Shown one piece after another: positions 6,739 to 57,911 of a DNA stretch of 64,000 bases. Position numbers and translations under genes: made by a program. The stretch's first letter is position 1. Each line of letters starts with the position of its first letter. The notes under the pieces were generated by a model, which saw only the letters and a program-made list of their open reading frames with translations, did no database searches and was not told the DNA's origin. This DNA is from a virus (taxonomy: Duplodnaviria > Caudoviricetes), in IMG/VR virus record IMGVR_UViG_3300043468_001158. The stretch is one strand, 5' to 3'.

Positions 6739-6786
6739 GGGAGAGAAATCTGCATATATATAATACCCTTAGTCTGTCAGTTTTTT
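6739..6786 (+). repeat. Dispersed non-coding repeat, block A (inverted copy at 57749-57795)
   Basis: GGGAGAGA...ATACCCTTAGTCTGTCAGTTTTT matches the reverse complement of 57749-57795. Confidence 0.9.
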
Positions 6787-6941
6787 CTTCCACATAAATG
6801 TCATAAAAATGACATATTTTAGTATTTCCTCCACATAAGAAAAACATTGTTCAATTAATTTTATAAGTTTTTGAAGAAATCATCATTTTTCTTCAAAAAT
6901 TGCCGAGTGATTAGTCATGGAAAATGATGCATTTGAAAAAC

Positions 6942-7019
6942 AGTATATAAATCAATAAGTTACGAAGATAATGATAAATAAAAACAGTAATAAAATCAAC
7001 TACTTAGAAAAAGACAAAC
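6942..7019 (+). repeat. Dispersed non-coding repeat, block B, with two IHF-consensus sites (inverted copy at 57834-57911)
   Basis: 73/78 identical to the reverse complement of 57834-57911. AATCAATAAGTTA (6950-6962) and AATCAACTACTTA (6994-7006) fit WATCAANNNNTTR. Confidence 0.95.
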
Positions 7020-7056
7020 TTCTGGTTTGTCTAAATATCTACATGTCAAAACACCA

Positions 7057-7085
7057 TTTACATTGCTACATACATAGAGTATAAT
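7057..7085 (+). promoter_or_regulatory. Early sigma70-type promoter
   Basis: TTTACA-N17-TATAAT (AGAGTATAAT), upstream of the RBS GAGGA and ATG 7116. Confidence 0.8.
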
Positions 7086-7115
7086 TACTTCAATCAATTT
7101 ACATAGAGGATTTTT

Positions 7116-7424
7116 ATGAGTCAAAAAACAGTCTTAGTTCTAAAGTTAGCGAATGGTGATGAAGTTGTTGGCCAACATATCAATGGTCCGCAAGATGTTA
7201 TAACACTTAGACGTCCGTTACGATTGGCACTTGTTCGTGACCCATCAACTGGGCAACCTGGTAAAGCACTGATGGAATGGATAATGTTAGCTCCTGAAAC
7301 TGAAGAAGTGAGTGTGTATGTGAACCAATTGCTTGTTGCACCAATACGAGCTTCTAAAGAACTTGCTGATACTTGGTTGGAACAAACATCAGGTTTCATA
7401 TTGACAACCCAATTGAATGGATAA
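7116..7424 (+). CDS. Putative Sm/LSm-like fold protein
   Basis: VLKLANGDEVVG...ITLRRPL...LMEWI pattern resembles the Sm-like proteins of T4-like myoviruses (from memory, unverified). Confidence 0.5.
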   Translation: MSQKTVLVLKLANGDEVVGQHINGPQDVITLRRPLRLALVRDPSTGQPGKALMEWIMLAPETEEVSVYVNQLLVAPIRASKELADTWLEQTSGFILTTQLNG

Positions 7425-7426
7425 TC

Positions 7427-7738
7427 ATGTCAAGCCATGACGATGAAGTTTGTTCAATTTGCGGAAGACTTCTTGGGGATGTGATGGTAGATGAACATCA
7501 TCTAATTCCCAAGACTTTCAAAGGTAAAGAAACAATAACACTTCATAAAGTGTGTCATCGAATGATACATGCTACTTTTTCTGAAAGAGAACTTCAAAAG
7601 TACTATCATACAATTGAACGACTTCTTTCAGATGAAAAGATGCAGCGATTTGTTGAATGGGTAAAGAAAAAGCCGTTAGACTTCTACATAAGTATCGATG
7701 ATACTGTTGAACGTAAATCAAAAAGACGAGGAAAATAA
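7427..7738 (+). CDS. Small HNH endonuclease-like protein
   Basis: CSICGR..DEHHLIPK..G..TI.LH..CHRMIH motif. Start moved to ATG 7427. Confidence 0.7.
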   Translation: MSSHDDEVCSICGRLLGDVMVDEHHLIPKTFKGKETITLHKVCHRMIHATFSERELQKYYHTIERLLSDEKMQRFVEWVKKKPLDFYISIDDTVERKSKRRGK

Positions 7739-7739
7739 A

Positions 7740-8534: not shown

Positions 8535-8538
8535 TCAT

Positions 8539-9372: not shown

Positions 9373-9385
9373 TCGTGTCATAGAG

Positions 9386-9409: not shown

Positions 9410-9439
9410 TCACTCACTTCTTCATGAAATACTCTCTAT

Positions 9440-10900: not shown

Positions 10901-10928
10901 TTTACATCTAAAGTAGAGAGTTTATAAT
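10901..10928 (+). promoter_or_regulatory. Early sigma70-type promoter
   Basis: TTTACA-N16-TATAAT-AGACACATATTCAAACAAA, with CTTCACAAAAAT upstream. Confidence 0.8.
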
Positions 10929-10977
10929 AGACACATATTCAAACAAACCACACAATGATGAGAGAGAGGAACCTACG

Positions 10978-12233: not shown

Positions 12234-12235
12234 CA

Positions 12236-26715: not shown

Positions 26716-27369
26716 ATGTTGAACTCGATGAATAACGTTGGTGGCTACTCCCAAAAAGATAAACAAATACAAGACGAACGTGAAAGAGTTCATCGTTTCA
26801 TTGCAACACGAGCACTAAGAACTGACAAACGTGAACTAACAGTTGATAGTTATGGTTTTGTCAATCTGAATGTAGTAGAATTTACAGTTGAAAAAGAACT
26901 GACTACTGGAGATATTGACCATCGTAAGTTAGGTTTTCACTTTGGTGCAGTTCGTAACATCTCCTTTAAAAGATTAGGATTAGACTCGCTTTATGCTTTT
27001 CCATACTTAGCTAATATGGTCGATGCTAGCGAGAACAACATCTCATCTATCAATGAATTGCCAATGTGCAAATACAAGACATTGAACCTTTCAAAAAATC
27101 CAATCACTTCTCTACACGGTATTGCAGGTAAGCTAACCGAATGTACACTCCTCGCAATTCCTGACACTGTCAGAAGTCATATCTTAGGTCTGCTAAAAGT
27201 CAAAGGTTTGAAAACTGTTGTAACAACAGAGTTTCTTACGAAAGATAAAGTTGAATTATTTCTAATGCTAAAAATTGTCAATAAGCATTTATCTTCTAAA
27301 AACCCTAACATGATTGATTGCCAACGAGAACTAATTGAAAATGATTTAGATGAATACGCTGAAATGTGA
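26716..27369 (+). CDS. Leucine-rich-repeat-like protein (paralog 1)
   Basis: VDASENNISSI, LNLSKNPITSLHGI; C-terminus CQRELIENDLDEYAE. Confidence 0.65.
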   Translation: MLNSMNNVGGYSQKDKQIQDERERVHRFIATRALRTDKRELTVDSYGFVNLNVVEFTVEKELTTGDIDHRKLGFHFGAVRNISFKRLGLDSLYAFPYLANMVDASENNISSINELPMCKYKTLNLSKNPITSLHGIAGKLTECTLLAIPDTVRSHILGLLKVKGLKTVVTTEFLTKDKVELFLMLKIVNKHLSSKNPNMIDCQRELIENDLDEYAEM

Positions 27370-27433: not shown

Positions 27434-27670
27434 ATGACGATGTACGTACCGGAAAGAGTTTATAATCACTTGCCAGAGTTTTGGTTAGGTTGTGCAATTG
27501 CATCAATCTTCATTGGGGTAAATGCAATTCTTGGCAGTTTGATGTTTGCTGCAATTTGTGGAACTATATTGACCATGCGTGGTAAGTGGCATATGGCTTT
27601 CTTGTTGCTTACATTCTATTTTGTGTTTTTAATGCTAGTTGCTGCTTCTCCAAAGATTGGTATTTGGTAA
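27434..27670 (+). CDS. Small membrane protein
   Basis: AAGGAG RBS and about three hydrophobic segments. Confidence 0.6.
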   Translation: MTMYVPERVYNHLPEFWLGCAIASIFIGVNAILGSLMFAAICGTILTMRGKWHMAFLLLTFYFVFLMLVAASPKIGIW

Positions 27671-27674
27671 GGAA

Positions 27675-37825: not shown

Positions 37826-40800
37826 CTTCAATAGTTTTGACAAATGCAACCCATCTAATTGTTTTTCCAGCTTCACCAGATACTAAGATTCTAAGAGCGC
37901 CATTTGTAGTATCAGCATATGCAGTTACATCCCATGCAGGTGAATCTTTGATGACGTTTGAAAGAGTAACCGTTCCTACTAATGCAGTTGTTGCAGCAGA
38001 AGCATTTCGGTCAATACATCCATCTAACGTAAATGAAGCGCTTTCATCATTTACATCAGTTCTTCTAGCAACTACTTGAACTTGGAACTTCCAAGTAGAA
38101 TCATTTGCTAATACCATACGGGTTGAACTTCCATTCAAGAAAAGTTCAGTTTGAGTAGCAGTTGTAGTTGAATTGCGTAATACGTAATCACGAGAAATAG
38201 CATCCCCATAAGTACTAAAGTTTCCATTATTGTGTGCAAGGTTATTTGCAGCAAATTGAACTTCGCCTGTACCTTTTGGCGCAATTTTTATAGTAATGTT
38301 AGTATCAGTTCCATTAGCACCTATTTGTACTGGATTAGTAGCTATATTACCCTGCAATGTTAGATAATTGACTGAATATGCAGTTTCAAGTATTCTTACT
38401 TGTTCAGTATTATTAGTATAAATTGATAATGGAAGATAAGTTCCTGTTCCAAATGCTCCAGAACTAATACGAGTATCAACATCAGTTGTGTAAATTTGAA
38501 TATTTGATGCATTTACAATGTTAGAATTATTAAATGCAATTATGCCAGCTTGCTGTGATGTACCGTTTGGCATGATTGGAATTACAGTATTTGTATTAGT
38601 AACACTTGATTGGAATGTTGGTCTAAGTGCATGATTAGCATTTCCAAACTCACCTAATATCTTTTGTCCTAATTGAACAAACTGTAAATTACCCTGTGTT
38701 GTAATTTTTACTTGTTCAATATTATTTGTAAGAAAAGATATTGGCAAGAAAGTTCCTGTTCCCAATGCACCTGATGCTAACCCTGCATATGTAGATGTTA
38801 CAACTAATTGAGCAAAAGCTGAATTTGTGACATTTGAACTATTAGCTGCAAATATACCAGCAGTAGTAGAAGTTCCATTTGGAAGTATTGGAATCATCGT
38901 GTTATTGTTAGTAACATTCGATTGGAACGATGGTCTATTTGCATGAGTAGCATTTCCAAAATCACCCCAGATTCTTTGTCCTGATTGAACAAACTGTAAA
39001 TGTCCTTGGTCAGTAATTCTAATTTGTTCTAATCTTACATTTGTAGTATTCTTAGTTGTTTCAAAGGATATGTAATTTCCTTGAGCAGTTGAAGTATAAT
39101 TCTCACTTGCAATGAATTGAATTGCGGCAGAGTTTGGACTAAAAGCTGCACCTGAATGATAACCTTTAGAATACAAACCAAATATTCTATCACCTGAAAG
39201 AATAGCAGTTGGAGTAGTCGAAGTTCCTCGAGCTTTCTGCGTAGTAATAGAAGCGAAATTAGCATCAGTACTATATTGAGATAAAGTAATTCCTCCACTT
39301 GTATTCACCCAGCTTGTTCCATTATATTGAAGCAATTGATTAGTAACTGGAGAAGTAATAACTACATCTGATAATCCATCTAAATTTGTTGAGCTAATAC
39401 CCACACTTGTATTCACCCAACTTGTTCCATTATATTGAAGCAATTGATTAGTAGTTGGAGAAGTAATAACTACATCTGATAATCCATCTAAATTTGTTGC
39501 ACTAGCAGTTGCAGATAATAATCCACTTCCATCAATTGAAAGTCCTGAACCAATTTTGACAACACCGGTTGTCATATAAGATGCTATTGGAAGCTGAGAG
39601 TTTTTCCATTCACCTAAATGATAGGTAAGAACATCAGATGCCATAAGTGGAAATGTAGAATTTATGCTTACATCAGAAAGATTATCTAAAGTTGAAGGAA
39701 TTGCTAATGTGTTCCATGATGGTAAAGCAGTCGCGCCATTTGAAGTTAATACTTCTCCAGCATGCCCAGGACTTCCATTAATTTGAAGTTGTCCTATCAA
39801 ATCGATATAGTAATCAACACCACCACTTATGCTTATAAATGATAAATGAGAAACATTTGATTGGGCTATTGAAATAACAGATGATGTAGTACTTGGAGTT
39901 AGCGATGTAATTGCAGACGGAACGATTGATTGAACAGTATGCATTGGTGTTCCTTCAAATTTGCTATCATTTGCAATAACATGTGTTCCAAAAGTTCCAG
40001 TAATTGAACCATCTTGTGGATATTTTAGTATCAATCCAGATGAAGCATACATATCAAAAGTACTTCCTGTTATATAAACAGCATTCCCATTTGTTACAAT
40101 TCCATTTAGATTATAATGTCTATCCCCAAATGTAGGATGTCCAAAAGTTTTTTGCCATTCAAGTACTAAAGACGAATTGAATTTGACTAATGATAATTGA
40201 TTATTAGCAGGTGCATATTGATCGCCTTCATAACCTAAGACATACACATTACCATTGATGTCTAATGACATACCAACACCATTGACAAATCTTACAAAAA
40301 ATGCATCATAGAATTGTTTGCTAGCTTCAACTGCTAAAGTAGCTTCATTATATTTGATGATTGAATAATCACCCATTGTCCAAGAAGCTGGTTGAGTACC
40401 CAATGCGTAAATAGAAGTTCCTGACCTTTTCAGTTCAACATATCTTTTGCCACCGGTAAGATTTACAGTGACATTAGAAACAAATGTAAAGCTGTTTCCG
40501 GTTACATTGAATTTGAATATGTTTGCAAAATTATCGTCTAATGGACTATCAAATAAATCACCACCTACAAACAATTCATTTCCAGAAGAACTTAGTTCTA
40601 ATGCATAAGTTCTAAATCTTTGGAGTTCGTAGAAGAAATCAACTGCGCCGGTTGTCATATTGATTTTACCAATATAACCTCTACCATCAGAATCTTGATA
40701 ACCTGATACATATAGTGAAGAATCATTAGCTCTTACTACCATATCAGAAATAGTACCATAGTAAGTATCAAATTTTGTTTGCCATACTATATTACCAAGC

Positions 40801-47300: not shown

Positions 47301-48454
47301 ATTGCAAAGAATGACAAGTCCGTTCCACTAAAGTTTCCAGGAATAGTCCAAGTAGTTGCAAGAGTTGATTGAGTAAATCCAAATGGCAAATTAGGTAAAA
47401 AGACTTTACCAACTTGTGGCATGCTAAACTGAAGTTCTACAGTATCTGCATCAAGAACTTTAGTTTCAACTGGAATAAGATACTCATAAGTAGATGGAGC
47501 AACTTCAATTAGTGGTTGAGCAAATACATTTAGACTATTATGGTTATGAGTAATAGTCCAGGTTGTTGATGGTACTGATTGAACAAATACTTGGTCAGGA
47601 ATAGTTTCATATACCACTACTTTACCAGTATGTGGCACCCCTAAAGTAATTTCAATAGTATTGTTATCAATAACAACAACTTGCATTGCAAGAATAGCTT
47701 CATATACTCCAGGAATATTCGATTCAATGTATGCTTGCCACATAATATTAGTTGAATCAAAGTTGTGATGAACCGTCCAAACATTCGATGCAATTGGAAA
47801 ATCAAATTGAACAATAGGATTTCGTTCAATAGTCCATTTATCAAATGATAATGAAGTATCTTTGAAGAAGATATTCGAAACATTGATTGGATTGAGCGGG
47901 TCTTTTTGAACGAGTAACAAACCTTCCCAAGTCTGAATTGGGGATTGAAAATCGCGATGAGGTTCTTGCCATTTACGAACAGCAGAACTAGGTTCATTCA
48001 GCTTGACAGACAACATACCCTTACTTACATAGTAGTCAAGTCCTTCAGCTAAACTTTCAGTTCCATTGACTATAACTGACTCGATACCTCTAGATGCTCG
48101 TAATTGATATGCGTTATCAATCCCGTAACTTGTTAGAAGATAGTTCGCTTTGCCAAAGTTTGAAGCTGTACTAAGAGTACTATCATAGTAATGTTGGTTA
48201 GACTCTAATGAATAACGCGGAAGATTGTAAGAAGGTGTCAAGAACCTACTACGTTGTCCATCATTGAAATACGACTTCTCCCATACTGAACTAAGTTCAA
48301 TGTCAATGAATATGTTATCTTTGATATTGACATTGAACGAGTCATAGAAGTCATACTGCTCTATGATTTCACTGATTTTGCAATGATAAGGTTTAGTATC
48401 AAGAACGTAATCAACTAAACCCTGAACATATTGTGATTTATTAGAAATAGACAT
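44342..48454 (-). CDS. Large baseplate-associated structural protein (1370 aa)
   Basis: Starts LVDYVLDTKPYHCKI, has GYD-rich segments and three W.I.HN domains, and overlaps the giant wedge gene. Confidence 0.7.
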   Translation of the reverse strand: MSISNKSQYVQGLVDYVLDTKPYHCKISEIIEQYDFYDSFNVNIKDNIFIDIELSSVWEKSYFNDGQRSRFLTPSYNLPRYSLESNQHYYDSTLSTASNFGKANYLLTSYGIDNAYQLRASRGIESVIVNGTESLAEGLDYYVSKGMLSVKLNEPSSAVRKWQEPHRDFQSPIQTWEGLLLVQKDPLNPINVSNIFFKDTSLSFDKWTIERNPIVQFDFPIASNVWTVHHNFDSTNIMWQAYIESNIPGVYEAILAMQVVVIDNNTIEITLGVPHTGKVVVYETIPDQVFVQSVPSTTWTITHNHNSLNVFAQPLIEVAPSTYEYLIPVETKVLDADTVELQFSMPQVGKVFLPNLPFGFTQSTLATTWTIPGNFSGTDLSFFAIYVDDGIGSYVQDYSPDFVVSPVAMTLTFPSAYKGYVSYGYNNSYKVTSRNEGLLGYAKLVTTGSIVVTPTIEQQDFYIAHDPSSVLVDGLNTGFTSITPGHIRLNEPVHDDLTPIVFSHVIDRFENEHISFDITGGSGLEAYIELREEGFTIHPNAPEEIWTLIKVNPISYRQLVHEYVGLPLVQIRALKDIPNPLDPNGFDITLPEFDYLRHRYKIELVSLPDTYLITDLATNQPPFSGTGSSFTINNGTDDLFEFTITSSIRQLHVGDYAYFAFGYDTDDYSSPIYNPYDNGLTNVPYFGTITEFHPGRETLKLLPLGQAYSNAVTEVIQLTFSASEKCFYVDGSVTGEHPNAFLGHEYDNGLVRFRLVSSSEVFDISKMLEDPRNYMLGYTERSIAALDLLDGDTFHFEILAERPNYLVHGSVTGYTKPAVVGQYYWNGKIGFQLDLPKYQVHEGNTLQGVALTGAGAITLSNGNVITFNEPPRLDADDERLDLKFHPEIDQCPLIDEYDQFLVYSSSRGQLQSAIVGGSDPYEVVFAECAERGAERSNMFNFTIEPGSYASDFEFSISIIANKFKMCHSQDVLLLPHQVGPINTLRVNTYREDNLTLELRTNHPELGSYSELIPTYLVASDDYNVGKGYDGHILRLGYDVFGHTLTPLNYTSPATTLIQNGQVIFNSFNEINVDPQGNGPYDAIFEFEPYDTTGYGTANDGAFPNKPHKQSPNIPDRAYIYDVFLSNVAYQSEAKHNKVGTITWMADPVDNVFRQVLDVTPHFASNYLKLNTELTIRVEQADEYNDLVRVKMYEQLEMLNIEVESINVNLPDTGVPGTDDGDNWADTKFDDFSLDARSDYEILAYHGYDMYGYDMVDFAINLETGLPYLLGGYDEDLPDPSNIRVLDILLQLHDTYTDTRIEHPVAELLLQLEDATNVIELYTNAPSVPGIGVRGYLLQEGLDYTTSSIPGQPSYKAITIHRPQPLQLVSY

Positions 48455-51400
48455 CTGCGTTGTTTACAATAGTTTCTGGAGTAACGGTGATGATGCTATG
48501 AACTGAAAGTCTTGAAGTTTTGAAGATGTCAGTGAACTCATAGTTATTGGCAAGTGCATCATTTAGCACCTCAAAGAATAGTTCGTTGATATGTTGTGGC
48601 AAAGCATGTCTCCAGATATAGTCTAAAACTTGACGAGTAGAAGCCGGTGTCACGAACCAAGTTGATGATTGTGATAGGTCTAACCCGTTGATAGTTGCTG
48701 TAGTATTTATCCCGTTTAGATAAACTGAAGTTTTAGGATTTAGAATGCTATTAGTTAGTGAAGCAATAATCAATGAACGGTCAGCTAATACTTGGTCATC
48801 TCTAAAACCATAACGAGTTCTTGTACCATGTCTTTCATCATATAAGACTTTGTTCAATGCAGGTATTGCTTGACCTGCCAGGTTAGTACCGGCAGCAGAG
48901 TCAACAAGTTTGTTCCAAAGTGTAAGAGGTATCTTCATATCTTGTTGAGGTCTAATCAATGTCCATTCAGTATGAGAGTTCTTCAAATCAAGGTCTTGTG
49001 GGTTATCACGTAAGCTAAAGTCACGCGTAAAGCGAAGCTTATACGTATTATCCTTATTAACCATCATGTTCAATCCAGCAATCGTAATACCATGATAAGC
49101 GCCATCAAACAACTCTTGGAAAGTTAAGTAAGTAGAAGGTCCTTCACGAAGTAATTGAGCAGATTGCTGACAAGTCAATTGCTTATTACCTACAGGCACT
49201 GTCTTATCTTTTACCCAAAAGTAATAAGTATCGCCAGTGATATTACCAGAACTATCACGTGAAGGACGTATAACATATTGATAGTCTGACTTATATTGAG
49301 TTTGGATACTTGGGTCATCAGATACATCAGGGTCAAAAGCAAGTTCATCAGAAGTTGGTTCATAAGCAGACATAATAGCAACTACTTCATGTCCATGTGG
49401 AATAGCTTGAGTAGTTGAAATCAAAGTCCCGTTAGTTGAATAGAATGTACGAGGTTGGCTAATGCCATTCAAGTATAGACGTAATGTATTGTCCGCTATT
49501 CGGTTAGAAGAAGTAACTTGCAAGTCTAATGTATTACCACTTCCAAACTTACGAATGACTTCTTGTTGCAATAATATCCAATCACCCCAAACAGGATTGA
49601 ACTTTTCAACTGTGGTCCCGTCATTCAATACGAGTGGCTCTTTTTCATATGCAACAATTTCGTCAATCACTTGTCTTACCGAAGGCACTTCAACATAATC
49701 GCCATACACTGGAGTCCAACTATTATGTGGGTATTTGAGGTCGTTATCAAGTATCTCTTGGGTTGGAACATTGTAACCAATCCAACCGTATTCGTCAAGT
49801 ACAGTAGAAGTGCTATTCTCGATGCCAATAGAACCAGTAGATGCATCATACCCAATGACAACCATAGCACCAATAGTGCCAAGTTCATCTATGACTTGTT
49901 GAGCATCTACTCCACTAGCAAAGTAATCAGGATGTACATTCACATTGATAGTAATATGTCCAAGATTGAAGCTAAAAGTTTCTACAAGAGGTTGAATTGC
50001 TAAAGCAACCGAAGTCAAGGTATCAATAGCAAGTGATGATACGACTAATGATGAACCCGACGGTGTCGCTTGTATTAGTTTCAAGTAATAGGTATCATTA
50101 GTTGTATTAAGTTCTCCAGTTACTGAATATGTGCCAACTGAAGCAGTTGGGTTTTTCACAAAAGTGACTTCACTAAATGCATTGATGCCGGTCACTGTCA
50201 ATTTGTTATCATATGACACTGGCAAATTGATAGGTAACACATTGTCCAAAATCGAATGAGGGAACTGAATAAGTACTGTCACTGGAGCAACTTCTTTGAT
50301 TTCCAAGTTGAACAGTCCAACATCAGGAGATAAGACTTGTTGAAGGGCAACACTTATCTCAGCACCTGTCATAGTAGCGACAGCAGTTGTTGCTATCATC
50401 TTGATACCTAATTGAACGAAGTCAATTTCATAAGACCCGCCAACTTGACCACTATAGTCGTATAGTGGTTGGGTAACAGATAGAGACCCACCTGATGCTT
50501 GTTCAATAGCACGAATGTAATAAGTTGAACCAACTTGACTCCATTCAAATTCAATATGACCAATTGCTGCACCTTTGTAGTTCTTGTTATCAGACCAAAC
50601 AAACTGAATAACATCGAAGTAATTCCCGTCACCAGCACTTACGTGCATATCACCAGAATGATAACCATCACTTAATGTAAACGCGATTGGTCCGTTAAGT
50701 ATTGCTTCACCATAAGGTTTGCCACCTAAGAACCCGCTAAAATGCATACCTGGCACTAACCCGTATTGTGCAAAGCGACCTTTCTCTAACGAGACAAACG
50801 TTTCGCCAACACCTGGGCTATTCAATGTCAAACGAGTTGTTCCTGCTTTGAACAATTGAACATCTTGTGCTTCAGGTGGAGTTGGAACATATGACCATGC
50901 AATAGGTCTTGCTTCCCAAGTTCTTGTTCTTTTGTATGATTGCTTACGAGCAGCTTTACCAGTTTTCTTATCTTCAAGTGCAACGTCTGCTGACAATTGG
51001 TCGATTGCAGAACGAGCATCATATTCACTTGGAGCTATTGAAGACTTAACCCATTCGTAGACATTGATTGACGAGTATTCAGCCATGCTACCCCAACGGC
51101 CAAGTCTTTCTTCAAAAGTTGGAAAGATTTGCTTGTCATGGTAAGGCACATATTCAAGTAGTGTTTTGTCCCACCAAGTTCTTCCTACCTCTCTGTCACC
51201 CCATGATTTTTGAGGGTCAAAGTTAGGGTTCTTAACAGTCAAAGTTGAATAGTTGTAGAATGCAGGGTCTTTTTCCGATACAACATTGATGACTTCCATT
51301 GCAATAGCAGTATGATTATCAAATGCTGGATGCCAAGTAGTAATGTCTTCAATCAAAGCTCTATCAACATAGTCAAACAGTTTGATTGGTGAGAACTTTG

Positions 51401-54400
51401 GTTTAGCTGGAACTTGAAGTTCAAACTCATAAGTTCCTAAAGTATCACATGAAATGACTGATTGAGTATGGAATGTTACATTAGCAGTTGGAGCCGGTTT
51501 GCTCACAATAGTATATGCATCAGCTTTTGGAAGAGCAATCATTTCACCAATAGTAGTAACCTCTAAACGATGAGTTCTTAACTCAGGTTCAAACTTCAAT
51601 GACGTATTCAAGTCGCTCAGTGTGTACCAACGGTTTTCGTCAGTAGGCAAGATTGAAATGTAAGTTAACGGAGCTTGAACGACTAAGCTATCAGGTTGTT
51701 CAAAGAATAGCCTAGTATGTTTAAGAGTGCAATCATTTGCATTCAACTTAAGTTCAGGATAAGTTGGAGTTCTTGCATCACCATACTCTGCTACTTTATA
51801 AGCCCAAAACTCATCAAGTTTTGCATGTTCAAATTTGACAGAGTTCAAGAATGCATCAATGCTGTACTGAGTGCCTTTTGCATTGACCATTGCTCTCCAG
51901 AAATTAAACTCTGAACGTTCGTTTGTTCTAAGTAAATCAAAGTATCCTTTCTTACTAAAGCCTAATAACGAAAGAGCATGTTTAGTTGTATCATCGTTAT
52001 CATATACTTTATCTGCATTGTAATAATGACCTACATCATCGATGCTGCCTGCCAAGTTCTTCTTGAAGTCATGTCTATCATTCAGGAAGAACCCACCAAA
52101 AGTTGGTCTAAAAGTATGATTTCTTCTAGCTTTAGCATCAATCAATAGTTTCTCAACTGATAAGTTCAAGAATGGGTCATAGAACAAACCTTCTGGAAAT
52201 GGTGAAGAAGTAATGTAGTTCTCAAATAAGATAAGATGTTCATACTCGTCAATAGTTATATGAGACCCGAATATTGGAACATAGCCCGTGATTTCAGTAT
52301 GGTCATCAAAACGAATGACCGTTGAACCATGTGGCTGAATGATGTCTCCAGTTACATCATAGATGAACTGTGAAGTTAGAATGTCATCAAAGCGACGTTG
52401 AACAAAAGAAGCTGGCAAACCTCTATTTGTAAACAACCAAAACTTTTCCATGAATGGATTGACACCAAAACCTTTACCTGGAACTGTTCCTTTATACAAC
52501 CCATCAATGAAGCGCTCTATTTCAAGTTGCCAATTCTCAAGTCTTCCGGAGATAGGGTCTTGAGCCGGATTATCACCTTGACCAAAGGCAAAGCCTTGGT
52601 CTTCAGTATACATTGCATAAGCATGTAAGAAATTGACTACGTTTTGAATACCTGTGATATTGATTGGCAAATTAATTGATACTATACTTGTTACTTCTAA
52701 ATAGTTTCTCCATTCATCGACTGAATGAGCTTTAGAAAAAGCATTGAAAGTTTCAAATGTTCCACTTGTATTTAGAGTATAAGTATCTATTTGTGGATGA
52801 CGAGAGAAATAGTTCTCTATTCTAAACTTCCAATTAGAACCTTGATTTGGACCGGGTTTATATATATTATTTCCATTTGAATCTTGACCTAACCAAATCT
52901 TGTCTAATCCAATTTCAATTACTTGAACACGAAGTGCTTGAAGCCAAAGGTTCTTAGCAAGAGTGCTCTTATTCATGAATAGTCGATATGACGGGTCAGG
53001 AATATTGCGATAAGCATCATTTGATAAACGAAGATTACCTTGTTCAATTAAAGTTCCTGAACGATATGCAAGTTGAGTTTTCCAATTTCTTAGTAACTGA
53101 ACATTCTTAGAGACTGATGAATCCATTGCATTATACGCTAAGAATTGTGTATAAAGTTGATTTAGTCCTTTATATGTAACTTTAGTTGCAGGAACAAAAT
53201 TTGATGTTCCAGTTCCATTAGTAAGAAGAGTAACTTCAAACTTATCTCCTATAATCAATGGTCTCCCATTCTCAACTACCTCAAAGTTGAATGCAATATC
53301 AGCACCATTAGTAAAAGACGTTCCTTTATGTAAAATGATAATAGTTTCATCTTTAGTTGCAAGAATAAGCTGAAGGTCTAATTGTTGATAAACTACTTCT
53401 AATGTAAAGTTTCTTGTGCCTCCAACTGATACATTGCTAAACACAATTTCAGGAATTCCTAATAAAGTATTACTTGTATGAACAGGTTCTCCATGTAACG
53501 AGAACTTATAATGGGTTAGTAAATCACCTGTCATTCTGTCTAATTCAAGTTCATTTGAAGCAAATGTTTGGAAACCCCAATTAGTTTCAAGAAACTTAAC
53601 AGGATTTATCTTATAACTTGAACGTGCTTGTGAATATGCAAAGGCAATAGAATGTCGCCAAATAAGTTCAACAGGACCTTCATCTCCAAACAAGTAAGAG
53701 TCACGAACTCCTAACGGTTCAGCTGTCAAAAGAGCATAAGAGCTTATCGGTGAAGAAAGAGAGACATAAGGTGGCAATAAAGTATCAGTATTAGGATTAA
53801 CACAAAGTTTGATACCAGGATATAATGCTTGAACATCAGTCCATAATGATGGATTCCATATTCTACACTCGTTGATAATAAAAGCATCAACATCAATAGT
53901 CAATGGAACTGAAGTTACTATCCAGAAAGACCCAGCATAAGGACCTTTATCAATCATAAAGAAGTCATATAAAGAAATATCACCTGAAGTATCATATCCA
54001 GCAACACGAGATAAAGTCAATCCATTCCAAACATATAATCCGTTCTCAGAAGCATCTGTTTGAGATGTCAATAGAACAGTATCACCATTACCTAAACCAA
54101 AAGATGAAATACTAAGAGGCGGTACAATTGTCAATAAATCAATGTTAGTAGTTGATACAATGCTTACACTTTGTTTTAAAATTCCTTGTGCTAATAATGA
54201 TAATGGATAATCTGCTTCATATGCCCATTTACCTGGAATCGATGAAGGTTGTGCAAGTATAGCTTCTGCATAAGTGTCATGTCCAAAGAACTTCCAAGGT
54301 GTTGCATCAGGACGAGTAAGACCTGGAGCAATTCCAGCGAATGTCGCAAAATAAGCTTCATATAGTTTATGCCATCTTGCAATAGATGGTAGGGTTCCAA

Positions 54401-57400
54401 CTGTTGCCAAATGATAGTTCCATGAAAACGGGTCATTGATGTTATACACAGAACCTAATGGGTCATACGAGTTTTGAATAGCAAACTTAGCTAATTCATA
54501 TTGCAAATTGTAAGGGTCTTGATAGACTGGGTTAGAAATATCCCATCTAAGAGTATTAACAGAAGAACCTAAAGTAGAAGCATCATAGAGTTTTTGTTCT
54601 GCTTTTAGAACTAATGCATTCACTATATCTTGGATATTGACAACAACCCAATTCAGCGGAGTTGAAGTAATATCCCATACTAAAGTTGTTGCATTGTAAA
54701 GTCTAAGTTCATTCGTAATTCGATTATACCAAGACTTACCACTTGGGTTCAACACACCAGATACATCAGGTGCAACTTCACCTTCATAATCAACTGAAAG
54801 ATACTTAAGCTCTGTACCATTATACCATAATTGACCTCTATAAGGTTGAGTTGGCATCGAGACCGAAACTGTTCCTCGCGTAATAGTTCCATCATATCGT
54901 AATACTTCAGCTAAAGCAATGTTATGCGACAATGTTGAGTCTGCTGTAAAGATTGGAGATTGGTGTCCATCATGATGAATGGTAACATGTGCATCAAGTT
55001 CAAAGTCATATACTTGTAATGGTTGAACTGCATTCATCATTCCCATCATTGGTAAAGTGATTGGCCAATATGTAATAGGCGCAGTTGTTGAACTGAACGC
55101 ACCAACTGCAGCACCTTTTAGAGCATAATCTGCTTCATACATACTAAACAAGTTATCAAGACTTCCGTCAGCTGACATACCTAGTGCTTCGGGTAAAGAA
55201 GTCAAAATGTATTCAGGAATAGAGTTTAGTGCATTTCCATATTGAAGTTCTGCAAAATCTAACAACGAAATCGGAGTCAAATCTTGTTGGTTCAATAATG
55301 AGAAGAATAAGTTATGAGCTCCATTCAATGTTTTGATTTTGCCACCAAAACCTGGGTTAGCATTTTGCAATAATCGATAGTTATTAGAACCAAATGAACT
55401 TCCAAAGAATTCAGGTTGATTTGCTATAGTGTTGATAAAGTGATTAGACAAATCGCCAAATAGAATTTCAGAACGGTTTTCACGTTCAGGGTTCATCATC
55501 AATTGGGGAGGCGTAAGCCAGCATCCTGGATGATTGACATCATTGTAGATTGTACCTGTTTTTGGCATGCCATCTGCATCACTTATTGCATAACGAGGTT
55601 CTTCGTACGATGATGCAACACGGAATATCATATTATCGCTTTGGGCACTAGTAAATGTTACTGAAGATGGAACAGGTGCATCAAAGTTGAATGCGATGAA
55701 ATCACTATGATAAGTTGAACCGATTATCGCATTAGGTAATTGACCCGCTTTTGAACCTCTTACTTCATATGTTGTTGGGTTCTTATAGGTTAGTGTCCAA
55801 GTTTCGTTATTTGTATAGATAGAAGCTTCGATACCAGAGATGACAATGAATACCTCACTCTGGCTATATGTTCCATTAGCTTTTGGATGAATGAAGAACG
55901 AGATGTCCCCTGATGAACTTGTATAAGGAGTTCCTGCTACTGCATCGGGTGTCTGAATACCTGCTCTTGAACCTGTGACAGTAAAAGTAATCCCATCACT
56001 TTGTGGAACAATAGTCCATGTTTGACTATCAAGAATTGGATTGATTTCAAGCGAAGTTAGATTGCCCGTACCACTTCTATCAATGATGGCTTCATTTACA
56101 TAAGGTTCAACCGGTTGTTCTGATGAACGCCAAATGGTTCTGATAACGCCATCCTGTTTGAATGCAAGCATTCTTCCATCGCTATCAGGGGTTTTGAGTC
56201 CTTGAGCAAAGTAAAAGTTACCCGTCTTATCTGCTTTGACACGACGTTGAAGCACAGCATCAAAATCTTCATTAGGGTCTTCGACATAGTAAAAGATTGA
56301 AGAAGTCCATGGAGCTTTAGTTCCATCAAGAGGCCAATATAAGTTGAACAGCGGAGGCTGATTGAACCTTGACTTGACTTGACCTGGAACAAGTTCAAGA
56401 CCTTCATCATACTCAATGATTGGTCTTGTTGCGCGTTGAACTTCACCACTAGGATTTAGTCCAAATAGATGTAAATCTTTGCCATGAACCCAATAGTTAG
56501 AAGTTTGCCAATCAGAAAGTGGTTCTAGGTTAGCATCCTCAGTATAAGTTTCTGCGTCTAAAGATTTGAACATCTTGCCATGATTAGTCGTTCCACTCTT
56601 TACATATACTTCTATTCCATTATTAGAGTAAGAACCTTCTGTATCATATGTGCGAACCCAATTACCAGCAGAGACTAAGTAGATACCATTCTCACTTGAT
56701 ACCGCTTGGTTCTTGACTAATACTCTCATACCTTCAGTAAGAGTTACTCCATCTATAGAAGTAAAGGATAAAGTTCCTCTTGTTCCTGATAAGACTCCTG
56801 TTCCAATTCCGGTAAAACTTATTTGCGCAGGTAAAGTTGAAAGATGTTCAACTTGAATAGTAAACATATCTCCACTAACAAAAGGATTAGTTCCAACTTC
56901 AATAGTGAAAGCTAAAGGTTTAGAACCGCCTCCGCCTACATAAGTATAAGTTGAACCGCTAAAAGATATTGACTCAGGAATTGCATCAATAGAACCAACA
57001 ATAGTAAATGACGTCGGTCCAGTAAAAGTTATAGTCCAAACTTGATTGAGTTTACCTGTTCCATTTAGAGCTTCAAGCGGGTTAGTTGTTGCTAATAAGA
57101 CTGGAAGTTTCTGTTTACTTGATAGAGAAGGTTTAGCAATAGTATAGTATTCAGGTTTCTTTAGAGGGTTCCAACTAATATTTTCATAAGGTAAAGAAGA
57201 TTGAACCCAAAAGTAACTTGAGTAATTTGCAAACTTGTCAATGTCAGTAGGTGGTGCAAAATTGAAAGCTTTTGATGACATCCAAGAACTTACTGTTGAT
57301 AAGTCAATTCCAGAGATTTCTGCTTTGTTCAATAAGTCCGCAAATGACAGGAAATATTCTTCAGTTCCAACTTTAGTAGCTATCATTGGAACAAATTGGT

Positions 57401-57620
57401 TGAAAGCACGTTCAATACTTGATTGTGTTACCCAAGGTCGGGTTTCTTTAGCGTTCGGAAAATATCTGCCGATTAGTCCGTATAGTTTGACAGACTCTTC
57501 GTGTGTCAAACTTTTGTCAAACAAATCTGATAAGAGAGCGGTATTGACTGGGTTCTTGATGCTATTTGGAAGTAATGAAGTTAGACTTCTAAACGGTTTT
57601 GAGTAATCAGATGTTGACAT
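48441..57620 (-). CDS. Giant baseplate wedge-like protein (3059 aa; positional analogue of T4 gp7)
   Basis: Uninterrupted 9.2-kb ORF downstream of gp6, with DIDKFANYSSYFW and two RVLVKNQ..SENG-type modules. Confidence 0.7.
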   Translation of the reverse strand: MSTSDYSKPFRSLTSLLPNSIKNPVNTALLSDLFDKSLTHEESVKLYGLIGRYFPNAKETRPWVTQSSIERAFNQFVPMIATKVGTEEYFLSFADLLNKAEISGIDLSTVSSWMSSKAFNFAPPTDIDKFANYSSYFWVQSSLPYENISWNPLKKPEYYTIAKPSLSSKQKLPVLLATTNPLEALNGTGKLNQVWTITFTGPTSFTIVGSIDAIPESISFSGSTYTYVGGGGSKPLAFTIEVGTNPFVSGDMFTIQVEHLSTLPAQISFTGIGTGVLSGTRGTLSFTSIDGVTLTEGMRVLVKNQAVSSENGIYLVSAGNWVRTYDTEGSYSNNGIEVYVKSGTTNHGKMFKSLDAETYTEDANLEPLSDWQTSNYWVHGKDLHLFGLNPSGEVQRATRPIIEYDEGLELVPGQVKSRFNQPPLFNLYWPLDGTKAPWTSSIFYYVEDPNEDFDAVLQRRVKADKTGNFYFAQGLKTPDSDGRMLAFKQDGVIRTIWRSSEQPVEPYVNEAIIDRSGTGNLTSLEINPILDSQTWTIVPQSDGITFTVTGSRAGIQTPDAVAGTPYTSSSGDISFFIHPKANGTYSQSEVFIVISGIEASIYTNNETWTLTYKNPTTYEVRGSKAGQLPNAIIGSTYHSDFIAFNFDAPVPSSVTFTSAQSDNMIFRVASSYEEPRYAISDADGMPKTGTIYNDVNHPGCWLTPPQLMMNPERENRSEILFGDLSNHFINTIANQPEFFGSSFGSNNYRLLQNANPGFGGKIKTLNGAHNLFFSLLNQQDLTPISLLDFAELQYGNALNSIPEYILTSLPEALGMSADGSLDNLFSMYEADYALKGAAVGAFSSTTAPITYWPITLPMMGMMNAVQPLQVYDFELDAHVTIHHDGHQSPIFTADSTLSHNIALAEVLRYDGTITRGTVSVSMPTQPYRGQLWYNGTELKYLSVDYEGEVAPDVSGVLNPSGKSWYNRITNELRLYNATTLVWDITSTPLNWVVVNIQDIVNALVLKAEQKLYDASTLGSSVNTLRWDISNPVYQDPYNLQYELAKFAIQNSYDPLGSVYNINDPFSWNYHLATVGTLPSIARWHKLYEAYFATFAGIAPGLTRPDATPWKFFGHDTYAEAILAQPSSIPGKWAYEADYPLSLLAQGILKQSVSIVSTTNIDLLTIVPPLSISSFGLGNGDTVLLTSQTDASENGLYVWNGLTLSRVAGYDTSGDISLYDFFMIDKGPYAGSFWIVTSVPLTIDVDAFIINECRIWNPSLWTDVQALYPGIKLCVNPNTDTLLPPYVSLSSPISSYALLTAEPLGVRDSYLFGDEGPVELIWRHSIAFAYSQARSSYKINPVKFLETNWGFQTFASNELELDRMTGDLLTHYKFSLHGEPVHTSNTLLGIPEIVFSNVSVGGTRNFTLEVVYQQLDLQLILATKDETIIILHKGTSFTNGADIAFNFEVVENGRPLIIGDKFEVTLLTNGTGTSNFVPATKVTYKGLNQLYTQFLAYNAMDSSVSKNVQLLRNWKTQLAYRSGTLIEQGNLRLSNDAYRNIPDPSYRLFMNKSTLAKNLWLQALRVQVIEIGLDKIWLGQDSNGNNIYKPGPNQGSNWKFRIENYFSRHPQIDTYTLNTSGTFETFNAFSKAHSVDEWRNYLEVTSIVSINLPINITGIQNVVNFLHAYAMYTEDQGFAFGQGDNPAQDPISGRLENWQLEIERFIDGLYKGTVPGKGFGVNPFMEKFWLFTNRGLPASFVQRRFDDILTSQFIYDVTGDIIQPHGSTVIRFDDHTEITGYVPIFGSHITIDEYEHLILFENYITSSPFPEGLFYDPFLNLSVEKLLIDAKARRNHTFRPTFGGFFLNDRHDFKKNLAGSIDDVGHYYNADKVYDNDDTTKHALSLLGFSKKGYFDLLRTNERSEFNFWRAMVNAKGTQYSIDAFLNSVKFEHAKLDEFWAYKVAEYGDARTPTYPELKLNANDCTLKHTRLFFEQPDSLVVQAPLTYISILPTDENRWYTLSDLNTSLKFEPELRTHRLEVTTIGEMIALPKADAYTIVSKPAPTANVTFHTQSVISCDTLGTYEFELQVPAKPKFSPIKLFDYVDRALIEDITTWHPAFDNHTAIAMEVINVVSEKDPAFYNYSTLTVKNPNFDPQKSWGDREVGRTWWDKTLLEYVPYHDKQIFPTFEERLGRWGSMAEYSSINVYEWVKSSIAPSEYDARSAIDQLSADVALEDKKTGKAARKQSYKRTRTWEARPIAWSYVPTPPEAQDVQLFKAGTTRLTLNSPGVGETFVSLEKGRFAQYGLVPGMHFSGFLGGKPYGEAILNGPIAFTLSDGYHSGDMHVSAGDGNYFDVIQFVWSDNKNYKGAAIGHIEFEWSQVGSTYYIRAIEQASGGSLSVTQPLYDYSGQVGGSYEIDFVQLGIKMIATTAVATMTGAEISVALQQVLSPDVGLFNLEIKEVAPVTVLIQFPHSILDNVLPINLPVSYDNKLTVTGINAFSEVTFVKNPTASVGTYSVTGELNTTNDTYYLKLIQATPSGSSLVVSSLAIDTLTSVALAIQPLVETFSFNLGHITINVNVHPDYFASGVDAQQVIDELGTIGAMVVIGYDASTGSIGIENSTSTVLDEYGWIGYNVPTQEILDNDLKYPHNSWTPVYGDYVEVPSVRQVIDEIVAYEKEPLVLNDGTTVEKFNPVWGDWILLQQEVIRKFGSGNTLDLQVTSSNRIADNTLRLYLNGISQPRTFYSTNGTLISTTQAIPHGHEVVAIMSAYEPTSDELAFDPDVSDDPSIQTQYKSDYQYVIRPSRDSSGNITGDTYYFWVKDKTVPVGNKQLTCQQSAQLLREGPSTYLTFQELFDGAYHGITIAGLNMMVNKDNTYKLRFTRDFSLRDNPQDLDLKNSHTEWTLIRPQQDMKIPLTLWNKLVDSAAGTNLAGQAIPALNKVLYDERHGTRTRYGFRDDQVLADRSLIIASLTNSILNPKTSVYLNGINTTATINGLDLSQSSTWFVTPASTRQVLDYIWRHALPQHINELFFEVLNDALANNYEFTDIFKTSRLSVHSIITVTPETIVNNADVYF

Positions 57621-57661
57621 ATAAGGTTCTTCTTCTCTCGTATAAAAGGATGTATATCAAC

Positions 57662-57669
57662 TATTTATG
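57662..57669 (-). promoter_or_regulatory. T4-type late promoter motif (CATAAATA)
   Basis: 42 bp upstream of ATG 57620. Confidence 0.55.
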
Positions 57670-57686
57670 TACTTTAGCAAACTGTG

Positions 57687-57911
57687 AAAAAACTGACAGA
57701 CTATATAATTGATTTCACCTGTGTCTAAGCAGTTGATTTTATTACTCGAAAAACTGACAGACTAAGGGTATATATTATATTCAGTTGTCTCTCCCTCTTC
57801 TTCATTTTCATATCATTTTCTCTTTTACTTCTGGTTTGTCTTTTTCTAAGTAGTTGATTTTATTACTAAAAATATTTATCATTATCTTCGTAACTTATTG
57901 ATTTATATACT
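57687..57911 (-). repeat. Second copy of the dispersed non-coding element (blocks B, A plus partial B', A') with three IHF-consensus sites
   Basis: IHF-consensus on the minus strand at 57726-57738, 57847-57859 and 57891-57903. Block B 57834-57911, block A 57749-57795. Confidence 0.95.

What the first reader, a model, noticed from the sequence alone, without database searches (positions are those of the whole stretch)
6739..57911. Inverted non-coding element shared 51 kb apart, built from paired IHF-consensus sites
The two largest intergenic gaps (about 6680-7110 and 57625-58030) are homologous in opposite orientation. Block B (6942-7019 vs 57834-57911) is 73/78 identical, and all 5 differences fall in one patch (AAAAC vs TTTTT). 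Block A (6739-6786 vs 57749-57795) is also conserved. Block B carries two WATCAANNNNTTR sites 44 bp apart (about four helical turns), and copy 2 has a third. The consensus is the established IHF site. Strong conservation of non-coding DNA between unrelated gene neighbourhoods implies function. Candidates are dispersed replication origins, a packaging/anchoring site or recombination substrates. I know of no named element like this in jumbo phages.
Basis: partly seen in the sequence, partly recalled or inferred. Interest (0 to 1): 0.85.

Follow-up and report, generated by a model that had tools for sequence, protein, structure and literature searches.

The report
Dispersed late-gene control cassette, jumbo phage
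The two inverted non-coding blocks are real and are two of at least six or seven copies of a modular intergenic cassette that sits at the head of transcription units in a clade of uncultured freshwater T4-like jumbo phages; its function is not established, and control of transcription is my leading guess.

Summary
The IHF-consensus boxes lie 44 bp apart, and copy 2 has a third.

The pair belongs to a family. By walking contigs identical to the window I verified four copies in this genome. They lie at about -33.0, +6.9, +57.8 and +95.1 kb, in alternating orientation. Two more sit 32 kb apart on another contig of the same lineage. Related phages carry the element at the same 7 gene contexts.

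It has two co-oriented modules that can swap order:
- Module B is a hairpin plus two 23-bp M boxes, always 44 bp apart. They vary only at the four free positions of the IHF consensus.
- Module A is a purine tract plus the N box TAGTCTGTCAGTTTTT, which never varies in the loci retrieved.

A gene always starts 65-135 nt downstream. In 6 of 7 contexts a T4-type late promoter (NATAAATA, or a one-mismatch variant in one context) lies between them.

Copies evolve in concert: paralogs are 85-92% identical, orthologs 66-78%. A sister lineage has no IHF boxes but has arrays of 2-8 N units at the same sites. More distant relatives have only a late promoter there.

Best reading (about 0.4): an orientation-dependent control cassette for transcription. 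A replication origin (about 0.2) is not excluded. No named equivalent was found.

The parts
6701..6708 (-). T4-type late promoter box CATAAATA, 30 nt before the minus-strand gene 6417-6671. It points away from copy R1.
   Evidence: 11 of 19 NATAAATA hits lie in the 6% of the window that is intergenic. These and three further hits counted as coding lie 30-59 nt before a same-strand start.
6711..6838 (+). Copy R1, module A in its hairpin form. It holds the purine tract GGGAGAGA (6739-6746), TATAAT, the N box 6770-6785 (with CCCT from 6766), TCCACATAA repeats at 6789-6797 and 6830-6838, and a hairpin at 6798-6815.
   Evidence: It is 94.5% identical to module A of context C1 in the same lineage and 91% identical to copy R0.
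6863..7032 (+). Copy R1, module B. It holds an A+T inverted repeat at 6868-6899, M box 1a at 6942-6964, M box 1b at 6986-7008 (start to start 44 bp), and a tail hairpin at 7012-7032.
   Evidence: It is 98.7% identical to module B of context C1.
7057..7085 (+). Sigma-70-type early promoter TTTACA-17-TATAAT for gene 7116-7424. It lies outside the repeat.
   Evidence: 11 of 12 matches. The same promoter is present in the orthologous loci L144 and L149.
57963..57999 (-). Strong intrinsic terminator after the baseplate wedge gene (58033-61602). In copy R2 it replaces the usual left-hand hairpin of module B.
   Evidence: -26.5 kcal/mol. RNA contigs of two runs from one sample stop at 58004/58005 while DNA contigs continue. 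This is a weak hint only.
57834..57932 (-). Copy R2, module B core. M box 1a is at 57889-57911 and M box 1b at 57845-57867, 44 bp apart.
57749..57800 (-). Copy R2, module A. It holds a purine tract, an AT-rich TATA run, and N box 1 at 57749-57764 (CCCT extension to 57768).
57688..57746 (-). Copy R2, third M box (57724-57746), a 16-17 nt spacer that varies between loci, and N box 2 (57688-57703). A sigma-70-like reading is TAGACA-16-TATAGT at 57727-57700.
   Evidence: RNA contigs extend 8-13 nt upstream of N box 2, so this promoter cannot be the only start.
57662..57669 (-). T4-type late promoter box CATAAATA, 42 nt before the 3059-aa gene (48441-57620).
   Evidence: It is conserved in the orthologs L009, L141 and L154.

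Best explanation
The element is a modular, orientation-dependent cis-acting DNA cassette that marks the head of about 7 transcription units in this phage clade. I read it as working on transcription.

Shown:
- It always lies 5' of a gene and is co-oriented with it, usually just upstream of that gene's T4-type late promoter.
- Its left end carries a hairpin or terminator.
- Module B carries two, sometimes three, perfectly phased boxes that fit the IHF consensus.
- Module A carries a purine tract and an invariant N box.

Inferred mechanism:
- Host IHF, or an IHF-like protein, binds the M boxes 44 bp apart and folds about 90 bp into a tight turn.
- The N box is the recognition sequence of an unidentified sequence-specific phage factor. 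It may be an operator, or the core of a special promoter class (TAGTCT keeps the key -10 positions).
- The resulting nucleoprotein complex insulates the unit from upstream transcription and sets the strength or timing of initiation into the downstream late unit.

Evolution: homologous recombination between copies keeps them alike within a genome and has permuted the module order.
For: Position and orientation:
- 45 loci fall into 7 gene contexts. In all of them a same-strand gene starts 65-135 nt after the element.
- A co-oriented NATAAATA box lies 9-109 nt downstream in 5 contexts. There is a one-mismatch version in a sixth, which is perfect in the sister lineage.
- NATAAATA is strongly enriched just upstream of starts.
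- Distant relatives have only that late promoter at the orthologous junction.

M boxes:
- The spacing is exactly 44 bp in every locus, while the 21-nt spacer sequence is only 37-56% identical between lineages.
- The variable columns are exactly the NNNN of WATCAANNNNTTR.
- The same 22-mer recurs 13 times in bacterial genomes, including four with 58-61% G+C. By my own rough estimate about 0.03 would be expected by chance in G+C-rich genomes.

Promoter-like features and hairpins:
- Around M box 2 and N box 2 the spacer varies but its length and the TATAGT motif are kept.
- Hairpins or terminators sit at the left end, with 2 compensatory pairs.

Transcription: RNA contigs cover the element and N box 2.

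Same-genome copies.
Against: - No transcription start is mapped. Contigs cannot show starts.
- The -35 of the sigma-70-like promoter is not conserved, and RNA extends upstream of its predicted start.
- In context C6 (copy R1) the adjacent late promoter points the other way.
- In one sister-lineage locus (L216) the late promoter lies upstream of the N unit. The geometry is therefore not that of a classical upstream activating site.
- Most late promoters in the window lack the element.
- Complete genomes of relatives have no N boxes, so the element is dispensable for late transcription in this phage group.
- Arrays of up to 8 N units, each with its own terminator, and the roughly even 32-51 kb spacing of copies (32-61 kb counting the sister lineage) are not predicted by a simple promoter cassette.
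- No IHF or HU gene was found in five phage fragments, and the host is unknown.
Confidence: 0.4

Rival explanations
1. The copies are dispersed replication origins of the T4 kind. [quoted passage not shown] IHF bending and the repeated boxes help open the DNA or assemble the replisome.
For: - There are several copies per genome at 32-61 kb intervals with alternating orientation.
- A polypurine tract on the sense strand is followed by a TATA-rich run.
- Direct repeats, IHF-type sites and hairpins resemble plasmid and oriC architecture. Arrays of N units in the sister lineage look like iterons.
- Four of the seven contexts lie where transcription diverges.
- In T4, oriF and oriG are a promoter plus an unwinding element. 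oriG lies by tail-fibre gene 34, oriE has iterons, the more active origins sit at strand switches, and oriC may need a late promoter (PMC3016281). Here two copies precede giant fibre-like genes.
Against: - No MotA-type middle promoter is recognisable, and no initiator gene is linked.
- N units are 120-300 nt apart, not the roughly 22 bp of iterons.
- The GC skew in the window follows gene orientation and shows no feature at either copy.
- Complete relatives of 345-368 kb lack the element entirely.
- The strict co-orientation with the next gene is explained more simply by transcription.
Confidence: 0.22
2. The functional product is RNA. The N box is the conserved single-stranded part (seed or protein-binding motif) of short transcripts or of 5' leaders. 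The sister-lineage arrays are then tandem small-RNA genes, each with its own terminator.
For: - Sister-lineage units are about 120 nt. Most end in hairpin-plus-T-run terminators whose stems differ in sequence but still pair.
- In the hairpin form of module A, the N box is followed by a 7-bp hairpin and a T-rich run. The central pair of that hairpin switches A-T to T-A between copies.
- N box 2 lies inside RNA contigs of two copies.
- In L216 the unit lies in the leader, downstream of a late promoter.
Against: - There is no Rfam match.
- No promoter is recognisable upstream of the sister-lineage units.
- RNAalifold finds no consensus fold for the left part of module B.
- M-box phasing with a free spacer sequence is a DNA-level signature.
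- In most contexts the N box lies upstream of the late promoter, so late transcripts would not contain it.
- The exact 20-mer CCCT plus N box, searched on both strands, is found in no bacterial genome. That excludes a long perfect target only.
Confidence: 0.12
3. The family is mainly a selfish or neutral repeat, like a MITE or a recombination hot spot. It spread to several intergenic sites and persists through gene conversion, with no role for the phage beyond supplying homology for rearrangement or segment inversion.
For: - Orthologous sites are empty in more distant relatives.
- Copies show concerted evolution and mosaic copy-to-copy similarity. R2 and R3 are 95.5% identical over 245 nt, spacer included.
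- Module order is permuted.
- DNA assemblies break at the element, and repeat unitigs have 2-6 times the flank depth.
Against: - The same 7 sites are occupied in three lineages, and at least three of them are also occupied in the sister lineage.
- The boxes are invariant and exactly phased while the spacers drift, which implies purifying selection on binding sites.
- Orientation relative to the downstream gene is always the same.
- I noticed no terminal inverted repeats or target duplications, though I made no formal test.
- Long contigs from different samples show one arrangement only.
Confidence: 0.08

Closest known systems
PeSL cassettes (promoter-early stem-loop) of T4-type phages (PMC2839356, PMC4122927)
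   Same: - Both are repeated composite intergenic cassettes in T4-like myoviruses.
- Both combine a hairpin or terminator with promoter-like sequence just upstream of a gene.
- Both supply homology for recombination and modular shuffling.
   Different: - PeSLs are about 100 bp, have consensus sigma-70 early promoters, number in the dozens and cluster in hyperplastic regions beside ORFans.
- This element is 250-400 bp and has only about 7 copies, 32-51 kb apart where spacing could be measured (32-61 kb counting the sister lineage).
- It sits next to late promoters and core structural genes.
- It carries phased IHF-type boxes and an invariant 16-20 nt box, and its sigma-70 -35 is not conserved.
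Bacterial dispersed repeats that carry an IHF site (E. coli RIB/RIP BIME-type elements; Neisseria Correia elements), recalled from memory
   Same: - Both are non-coding, multi-copy intergenic elements with a functional-looking IHF consensus.
- Both include hairpin-forming repeats and have potential effects on neighbouring transcription.
   Different: - Those elements are bacterial, number tens to hundreds, are bounded by palindromic units or terminal inverted repeats, and have one IHF site.
- This element is in a phage genome and has two or three phased sites plus an unrelated invariant box.
- Its orientation is tied to the downstream gene.
T4 replication origins oriF/oriG (promoter plus unwinding element) and oriE (iterons) (PMC3016281)
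   Same: - Both have several copies per genome, located at gene heads or strand switches.
- Both are promoter-linked and directional, with direct repeats.
- One T4 origin lies before a tail-fibre gene, as copies R0 and R2 do.
   Different: - T4 origins share no sequence with one another, whereas these copies are homologous.
- No MotA box is present, and no replication evidence exists.
Lambda nutL/nutR and similar antitermination sites (from memory)
   Same: - Both are a short conserved sequence present once per divergent operon.
- Both are therefore found in inverted orientation, between promoter and terminator.
   Different: - There is no boxA/boxB-like hairpin.
- The N box usually lies upstream of the late promoter.
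- Arrays of N units have no nut counterpart.

Membership tests
IHF binding site | Core consensus WATCAANNNNTTR | tested here: met
   All 44 distinct M boxes keep AATCAA and TTA. Columns 15-18, the NNNN positions, are the variable ones within the core. The window sites are listed.
IHF binding site | A/T-rich tract 5' of the core | tested here: met
   An invariant GTA followed by (A/T)3 AAA precedes the core, and an A- or T-run lies further upstream.
IHF binding site | Binding and bending by IHF of the host | not testable with these tools
   The host is unknown. The only indirect support is that the same 22-mer recurs in Proteobacteria, including genomes with about 61% G+C, often between inverted repeats.
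PeSL cassette (T4-type phages) | Consensus sigma-70 early promoter (-35 and -10) inside the repeat | tested here: inconclusive
   TAGACA-16-TATAGT is present in R2, but the -35 varies between copies (TATACT, TACAGA, TACACT). RNA contigs extend upstream of its predicted start. The hairpin form of module A lacks it.
PeSL cassette (T4-type phages) | Adjacent stem-loop acting as terminator or attenuator | tested here: met
   The left part of module B folds at -16 to -23 kcal/mol in most copies that keep the inverted repeat. In R2, L009 and L154 it is replaced by strong terminators. 86% of cells are paired, with 2 compensatory pairs. Function was not assayed.
PeSL cassette (T4-type phages) | About 100 bp, many copies, clustered in hyperplastic regions next to ORFans | tested here: not met
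   There are about 7 contexts. Contigs of 70-90 kb hold one copy each. Copies lie 32-51 kb apart, next to the wedge, fibre-like, TerL and gp42-like genes.
T4 oriF/oriG-type origin | Middle-mode promoter (MotA box at -30 plus a -10) | tested here: not met
   Only some third M boxes contain TGCTT, it lies 3-4 nt too far upstream, and the remaining positions do not fit. This is my own reading against the consensus quoted.
T4 oriF/oriG-type origin | A+T-rich unwinding element downstream, and autonomous replication in infected cells | not testable with these tools
   The A+T-rich run after the purine tract is compatible with this feature, but no unwinding or replication data exist.
Iteron-type origin (R6K gamma, pSC101, T4 oriE) | Cluster of evenly spaced short direct repeats (about 2 helical turns) with a linked initiator gene | tested here: not met
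   M boxes come as one pair, 44 bp apart. N units are 120-300 nt apart. The downstream genes differ between contexts and none looks like an initiator.
Known RNA families (Rfam) and tRNA | Match to a curated covariance model | tested here: not met
   There were no gathering-score hits in the window and only chance-level hits on the sister-lineage array. No tRNA was found.
MITE / Correia-like mobile element | Terminal inverted repeats and target-site duplication; presence/absence between close relatives | not tested
   I noticed none while reading the alignments, but I made no formal test. Empty sites were seen only in distant relatives.

The most novel reading that the evidence does not exclude
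The N boxes are hard-wired, strand-specific entry sites. They would be site-specific nicks or R-loop start points at which the phage sliding clamp or replisome is loaded.

This would replace the random nicks and forks that T4 uses as the mobile enhancer of late transcription. In T4 that nick must lie in the non-transcribed strand and may sit upstream or downstream of the promoter (PMC2988020).

It would explain several features together:
- the invariant 16-20 nt sequence;
- the fixed orientation relative to late units;
- a position that can be either side of the late promoter;
- the alternating orientation;
- the roughly 40-kb spacing around a genome of about 300 kb or more;
- the arrays in the sister lineage.

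The IHF boxes would be an added device to hold the site open or to stop clamp sliding.
Probability: 0.1. Interest if true: 0.9.

Novelty: new variant of a known kind. Interest (0 to 1): 0.62.

Why it matters
- **What it would be.** If it controls transcription, this would be, as far as I could find, the first described conserved multi-part cis-regulatory cassette of a jumbo phage. It has a defined box grammar: phased IHF-type sites plus an invariant phage-specific box.
- **What it predicts.** It points to an unknown trans-acting factor and to use of host IHF by a T4-like phage.
- **Genome organisation.** The copy map raises a testable question about how a genome of 300 kb or more is organised. 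There are about 7 sites, 32-51 kb apart where measured, in alternating orientation. At least three of these sites are also occupied in a sister lineage whose wedge protein is only about 56% identical.
- **Practical uses.** The repeats explain why assemblies of these phages break at fixed points. They are also a clean natural example of gene conversion homogenising dispersed repeats in a virus.

Tried and rejected
**Searches that found nothing or could not be run**
- GenBank phages, blastn on region 1: no match.
- No whole genome is held for the window, and ENA loci cannot be searched as records.
- Rfam and tRNA scans: nothing.
- PF00216 (HU/IHF) in five IMG/VR fragments: none. This is not conclusive.
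- The exact 20-mer CCCT plus N box occurs in no bacterial genome.

**Searches that were not useful**
- A loose two-site IHF pattern scanned in IMG/VR returned mostly hits outside the element family, which I took to be chance matches, and I did not use it.

**RNA contigs**
- They cannot give starts, ends or strand.
- The uncovered stretches 57933-58004 and, in run X20, 57738-57938 are recorded here only and are not used as evidence.
- The joint 57771 to 57875 has only 23 nt on one side and is probably another copy, not a deletion or an inversion isomer.

**Structure**
- RNAalifold found no consensus fold for the left part of module B.

**Readings considered and dropped**
- A micro-ORF running through the N box. 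It has in-frame stops and no start codon in L135 and L150.
- Resemblances recalled from memory: sigmaE-like (spacing 4 nt too long), sigma54, a Pho box (half-site only) and DnaA boxes (TTCCACA, 7-8 of 9 positions, only in the hairpin form of module A).
- The sigma-70-like promoter at N box 2 as the sole start. RNA extends upstream of it.

**Other checks**
- GC skew shows no feature at either copy.
None exists between -8.5 kb and 0. The copy I verified is at -33 kb.
- The att-like split-palindrome idea. The tail after M box 1b varies between copies, and only context C6 forms the hairpin.
Full report
**1.
- Region 1 (6672-7115) lies between divergent genes. Region 2 (57621-58032) lies between the baseplate wedge gene and a 3059-aa gene, both on the minus strand.
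- The two regions share inverted homology. 6868-7019 matches 57834-57985 over 152 nt at 78%, and 6739-6785 matches 57749-57795 at 85%.
- All inverted exact 20-mers shared within the window come from these two regions.
- The regions are not one inverted block. Region 1 reads A then B. Region 2, read on the minus strand, reads B then A, then an extra M box and N box.

**2. What the window is.**
- It is part of a T4-like jumbo myovirus assembled from lake metagenomes. The wedge protein is 48% identical to that of Ralstonia phage RsoM2USA, with weaker matches to XacN1, CBB and PA5oct.
- Runs holding the sequence are all lake or freshwater metagenomes.
- Nearby genes include gp20, gp21 and gp23 homologues, gp46/47-like genes and a gp42-like gene.
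- NATAAATA behaves as a T4-type late promoter. Eleven of 19 hits lie in the 6% of the window that is intergenic. These and three further hits lie 30-59 nt before a same-strand start.
- Early promoters read TTTACA-17-TATAAT.

**3. Anatomy.** Exact-motif scans of IMG/VR and of JGI/NCBI metagenomes gave 45 loci.
- **Module B** has a left hairpin or inverted repeat. In some copies a stronger terminator replaces it. It is followed by TTTGAAAA and two 23-bp M boxes (AGTAATAAAATCAAYWRSTTAKA). Their starts are exactly 44 bp apart in every locus.
- **Module A** has a purine tract (such as GGGAGAGAGGGAGAA), a TATA-rich run and the N box CCCTTAGTCTGTCAGTTTTT. It then takes one of two forms:
  - CG, a third M box, a spacer that varies, and a second N box preceded by ATTATA; or
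  - a 7-bp hairpin flanked by TCCACATAA repeats.
- **Order and orientation.** The orders seen are MMNMN, MMN, MN, NMNMM and NMM. The two modules are always co-oriented.
- **Fit to the IHF consensus.** Among 44 distinct M boxes, AAATCAA and TTA never vary. The four columns between them, which are the NNNN of WATCAANNNNTTR, are the ones that do.
- **The same sequence in bacteria.** The 22-mer occurs 13 times in species-representative bacterial genomes. Four of these genomes have 58-61% G+C, and the site often lies between inverted repeats. By my own rough estimate, chance would give about 0.03 hits in G+C-rich genomes. This fits a widely used binding site, with IHF the obvious candidate. Binding itself is untested.

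**4. Copies and contexts.**
- Flank clustering gives seven contexts.
- In every context a same-strand gene starts 65-135 nt after the element. The upstream neighbour is either the end of a co-directional gene or a divergent gene start.
- The downstream genes are unrelated to each other:
  - an HD-domain protein;
  - a 138-aa unknown after TerL;
  - the 3059-aa protein;
  - a WYL_2 protein;
  - a 205-aa unknown;
  - a phrog_527 protein;
  - a 1691-aa fibre-like protein.
- A co-oriented NATAAATA lies 9-109 nt downstream in five contexts. C2 has TGTAAATA, which is a perfect TATAAATA in the sister lineage. C6 (copy R1) has an early promoter downstream instead, and a late promoter pointing the other way.
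- I walked along contigs that are identical to the window (0 mismatches over 12.5 and 11.9 kb). This verified four copies in one genome:

| Copy | Window coordinate | Strand | Neighbours |
|---|---|---|---|
| R0 | -33.1 kb | minus | gp42-like gene / fibre-like gene |
| R1 | +6.9 kb | plus | — |
| R2 | +57.8 kb | minus | — |
| R3 | +95.0 to +95.3 kb | plus | nuclease / WYL_2 |

- The C1 and C2 copies of the same lineage lie 32.3 kb apart and face each other on another contig.
- The measured intervals are 39.9, 50.9, 37.3 and 32.3 kb.
- In DNA assemblies, contigs break at the element, and repeat unitigs have 2-6 times the flank depth.

**5. Evolution.**
- Three lineages share the contexts. I call them alpha, beta (the window's own) and gamma, assigned from the samples of origin and flank identity.
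- The B core is 85-92% identical between paralogs within a lineage, but 66-78% between orthologs. For the 21-nt spacer between the M boxes the figures are 80-98% against 37-56%. Flanking coding DNA is 72-87% identical between the same lineages.
- R2 and R3 are 95.5% identical over 245 nt, including the non-conserved spacer.
- R1's two modules are 98.7% and 94.5% identical to those of C1, but in the opposite order.
- This is concerted evolution by recombination, with selection acting on the boxes and on their spacing.

**6. Distribution.**
- Where the wedge protein is 38-50% identical, the junction between the wedge gene and the next large gene is mostly 64-111 nt and typically holds only NATAAATA.
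- Three complete genomes of 345-368 kb have no N boxes beyond the control level.
- A sister lineage (wedge 56% identical; 164-kb contig G006) shows no IHF-consensus match in the junction scanned, and I saw no M boxes in its units. It carries arrays of 2-8 units of about 120 nt. Each unit holds GCTACGTTTTTGAAAAG, GAGAC-type purine repeats, the N box and CGTAGCAGTTC, usually followed by a terminator hairpin.
- These arrays lie at 0.1-1.0, 61.8-63.2, 99.4-100.2 and 140.8-141.1 kb of G006. At least two of them sit at sites orthologous to C5 and C3. Another contig of this lineage carries a single unit at the C2 site.
- The purine tract plus the N box is therefore the older core. The IHF-type boxes were added in one sub-clade.
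- In L216 the late promoter lies upstream of the unit. The relative position is flexible, but the orientation is not.

**7. RNA evidence (weak).**
- In one metatranscriptome run a contig covers 57378-57932, which is the whole of copy R2.
- In a second run from the same sample, contigs of R2 and of the C2 copy end 8-13 nt upstream of N box 2.
- Both runs have nothing over the terminator, while DNA contigs continue across it.
- These are contigs, not reads. They show only that the sequence, including N box 2, is present in the RNA libraries.

**8. Interpretation.**
- Taken together, several features fit best with a DNA-level nucleoprotein cassette that acts on transcription of the downstream unit. 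These are the constant orientation, the position at gene heads beside late promoters, the left-end terminators, the phased bending sites and the invariant box. My confidence is about 0.4.
- The closest described relatives in concept are the PeSL cassettes of T4-type phages. This element fails their defining features of size, copy number, location and consensus early promoter.
- A T4-style origin remains a serious rival, at about 0.22. The purine tract, the repeats, the spacing, the positions at strand switches and the parallels with oriG and oriE all fit it. Nothing here tests replication.
- RNA-product and selfish-repeat readings are less likely but are not excluded.
- The most novel reading still open is that N boxes are strand-specific nick or clamp-loading sites, serving as built-in enhancers of late transcription.

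**9. Earlier notes of this scan.** They had flagged further copies and origin-like features in the same genome.
- I confirmed the copy 37 kb beyond R2.
- I confirmed one upstream copy, at -33 kb.
- I did not find a copy at about -4 kb.
- I did not check the copy suggested near -62 kb.

Noticed in passing
window 3993-4039 and 10901-10947: Two 47-nt direct repeats (81% identical). Each holds an early promoter TTTACA-17-TATAAT plus about 19 conserved downstream bases. This is a second, PeSL-like repeated promoter cassette.
   Followed up: no
window 26716-27369 and 27639-28253; L006, L014, L018: Two paralogous genes share a conserved C-terminal stretch (27272-27363 versus 28156-28247, 75% identical over 92 nt). 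In relatives, three to five tandem paralogs with this tail lie just upstream of the large terminase gene and the C2 copy.
   Followed up: partly
window, whole: NATAAATA is strongly enriched 30-59 nt upstream of start codons (11 of 19 hits fall in the 6% of the window that is intergenic). This fits T4-type gp55-dependent late promoters.
   Followed up: yes
window, whole: The IHF consensus WATCAANNNNTTR occurs 26 times against 8.2 ± 3.0 in dinucleotide shuffles. Only 5 of these hits are in the element, and most of the rest are inside genes.
   Followed up: no
window 37815-43649: The 1944-aa gene contains several families of internal tandem repeats (units of 153, 108 and 312 nt). It also shares segments 6550 nt apart with the 36140-37099 region, which suggests repeated structural domains.
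   Followed up: no
L197:4300-4480 and 4638-4777; L226: Within the sister-lineage N-unit arrays a second repeat of about 140-175 nt alternates with the N units. It has a TTCAG...CTGAA hairpin and a conserved A+T-rich segment. Its nature is unknown.
   Followed up: no
L174, L177, L181, L184 (bacterial MAG contigs): The M-like 22-mer sits between inverted or direct repeats (for example AAGTATGATACTTTT on both sides). This looks like an IHF site flanked by regulator or recombinase binding sites in unrelated bacteria.
   Followed up: partly
L001:11032-11835 (- strand): The HD-domain protein downstream of the C1 copy begins MSISFRHFLQLSE.
   Followed up: no
window 6973-6980 (+) and 57873-57880 (-): In the window's lineage only, the spacer between the two M boxes contains GATAAATA, a match to the late-promoter octamer. 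Other lineages have GAATAATA or TGTAAATA at that position.
   Followed up: partly
window 7427-7738: A 103-aa ORF, the second gene downstream of copy R1, has a sub-threshold HNH endonuclease match (E = 0.008).
   Followed up: no
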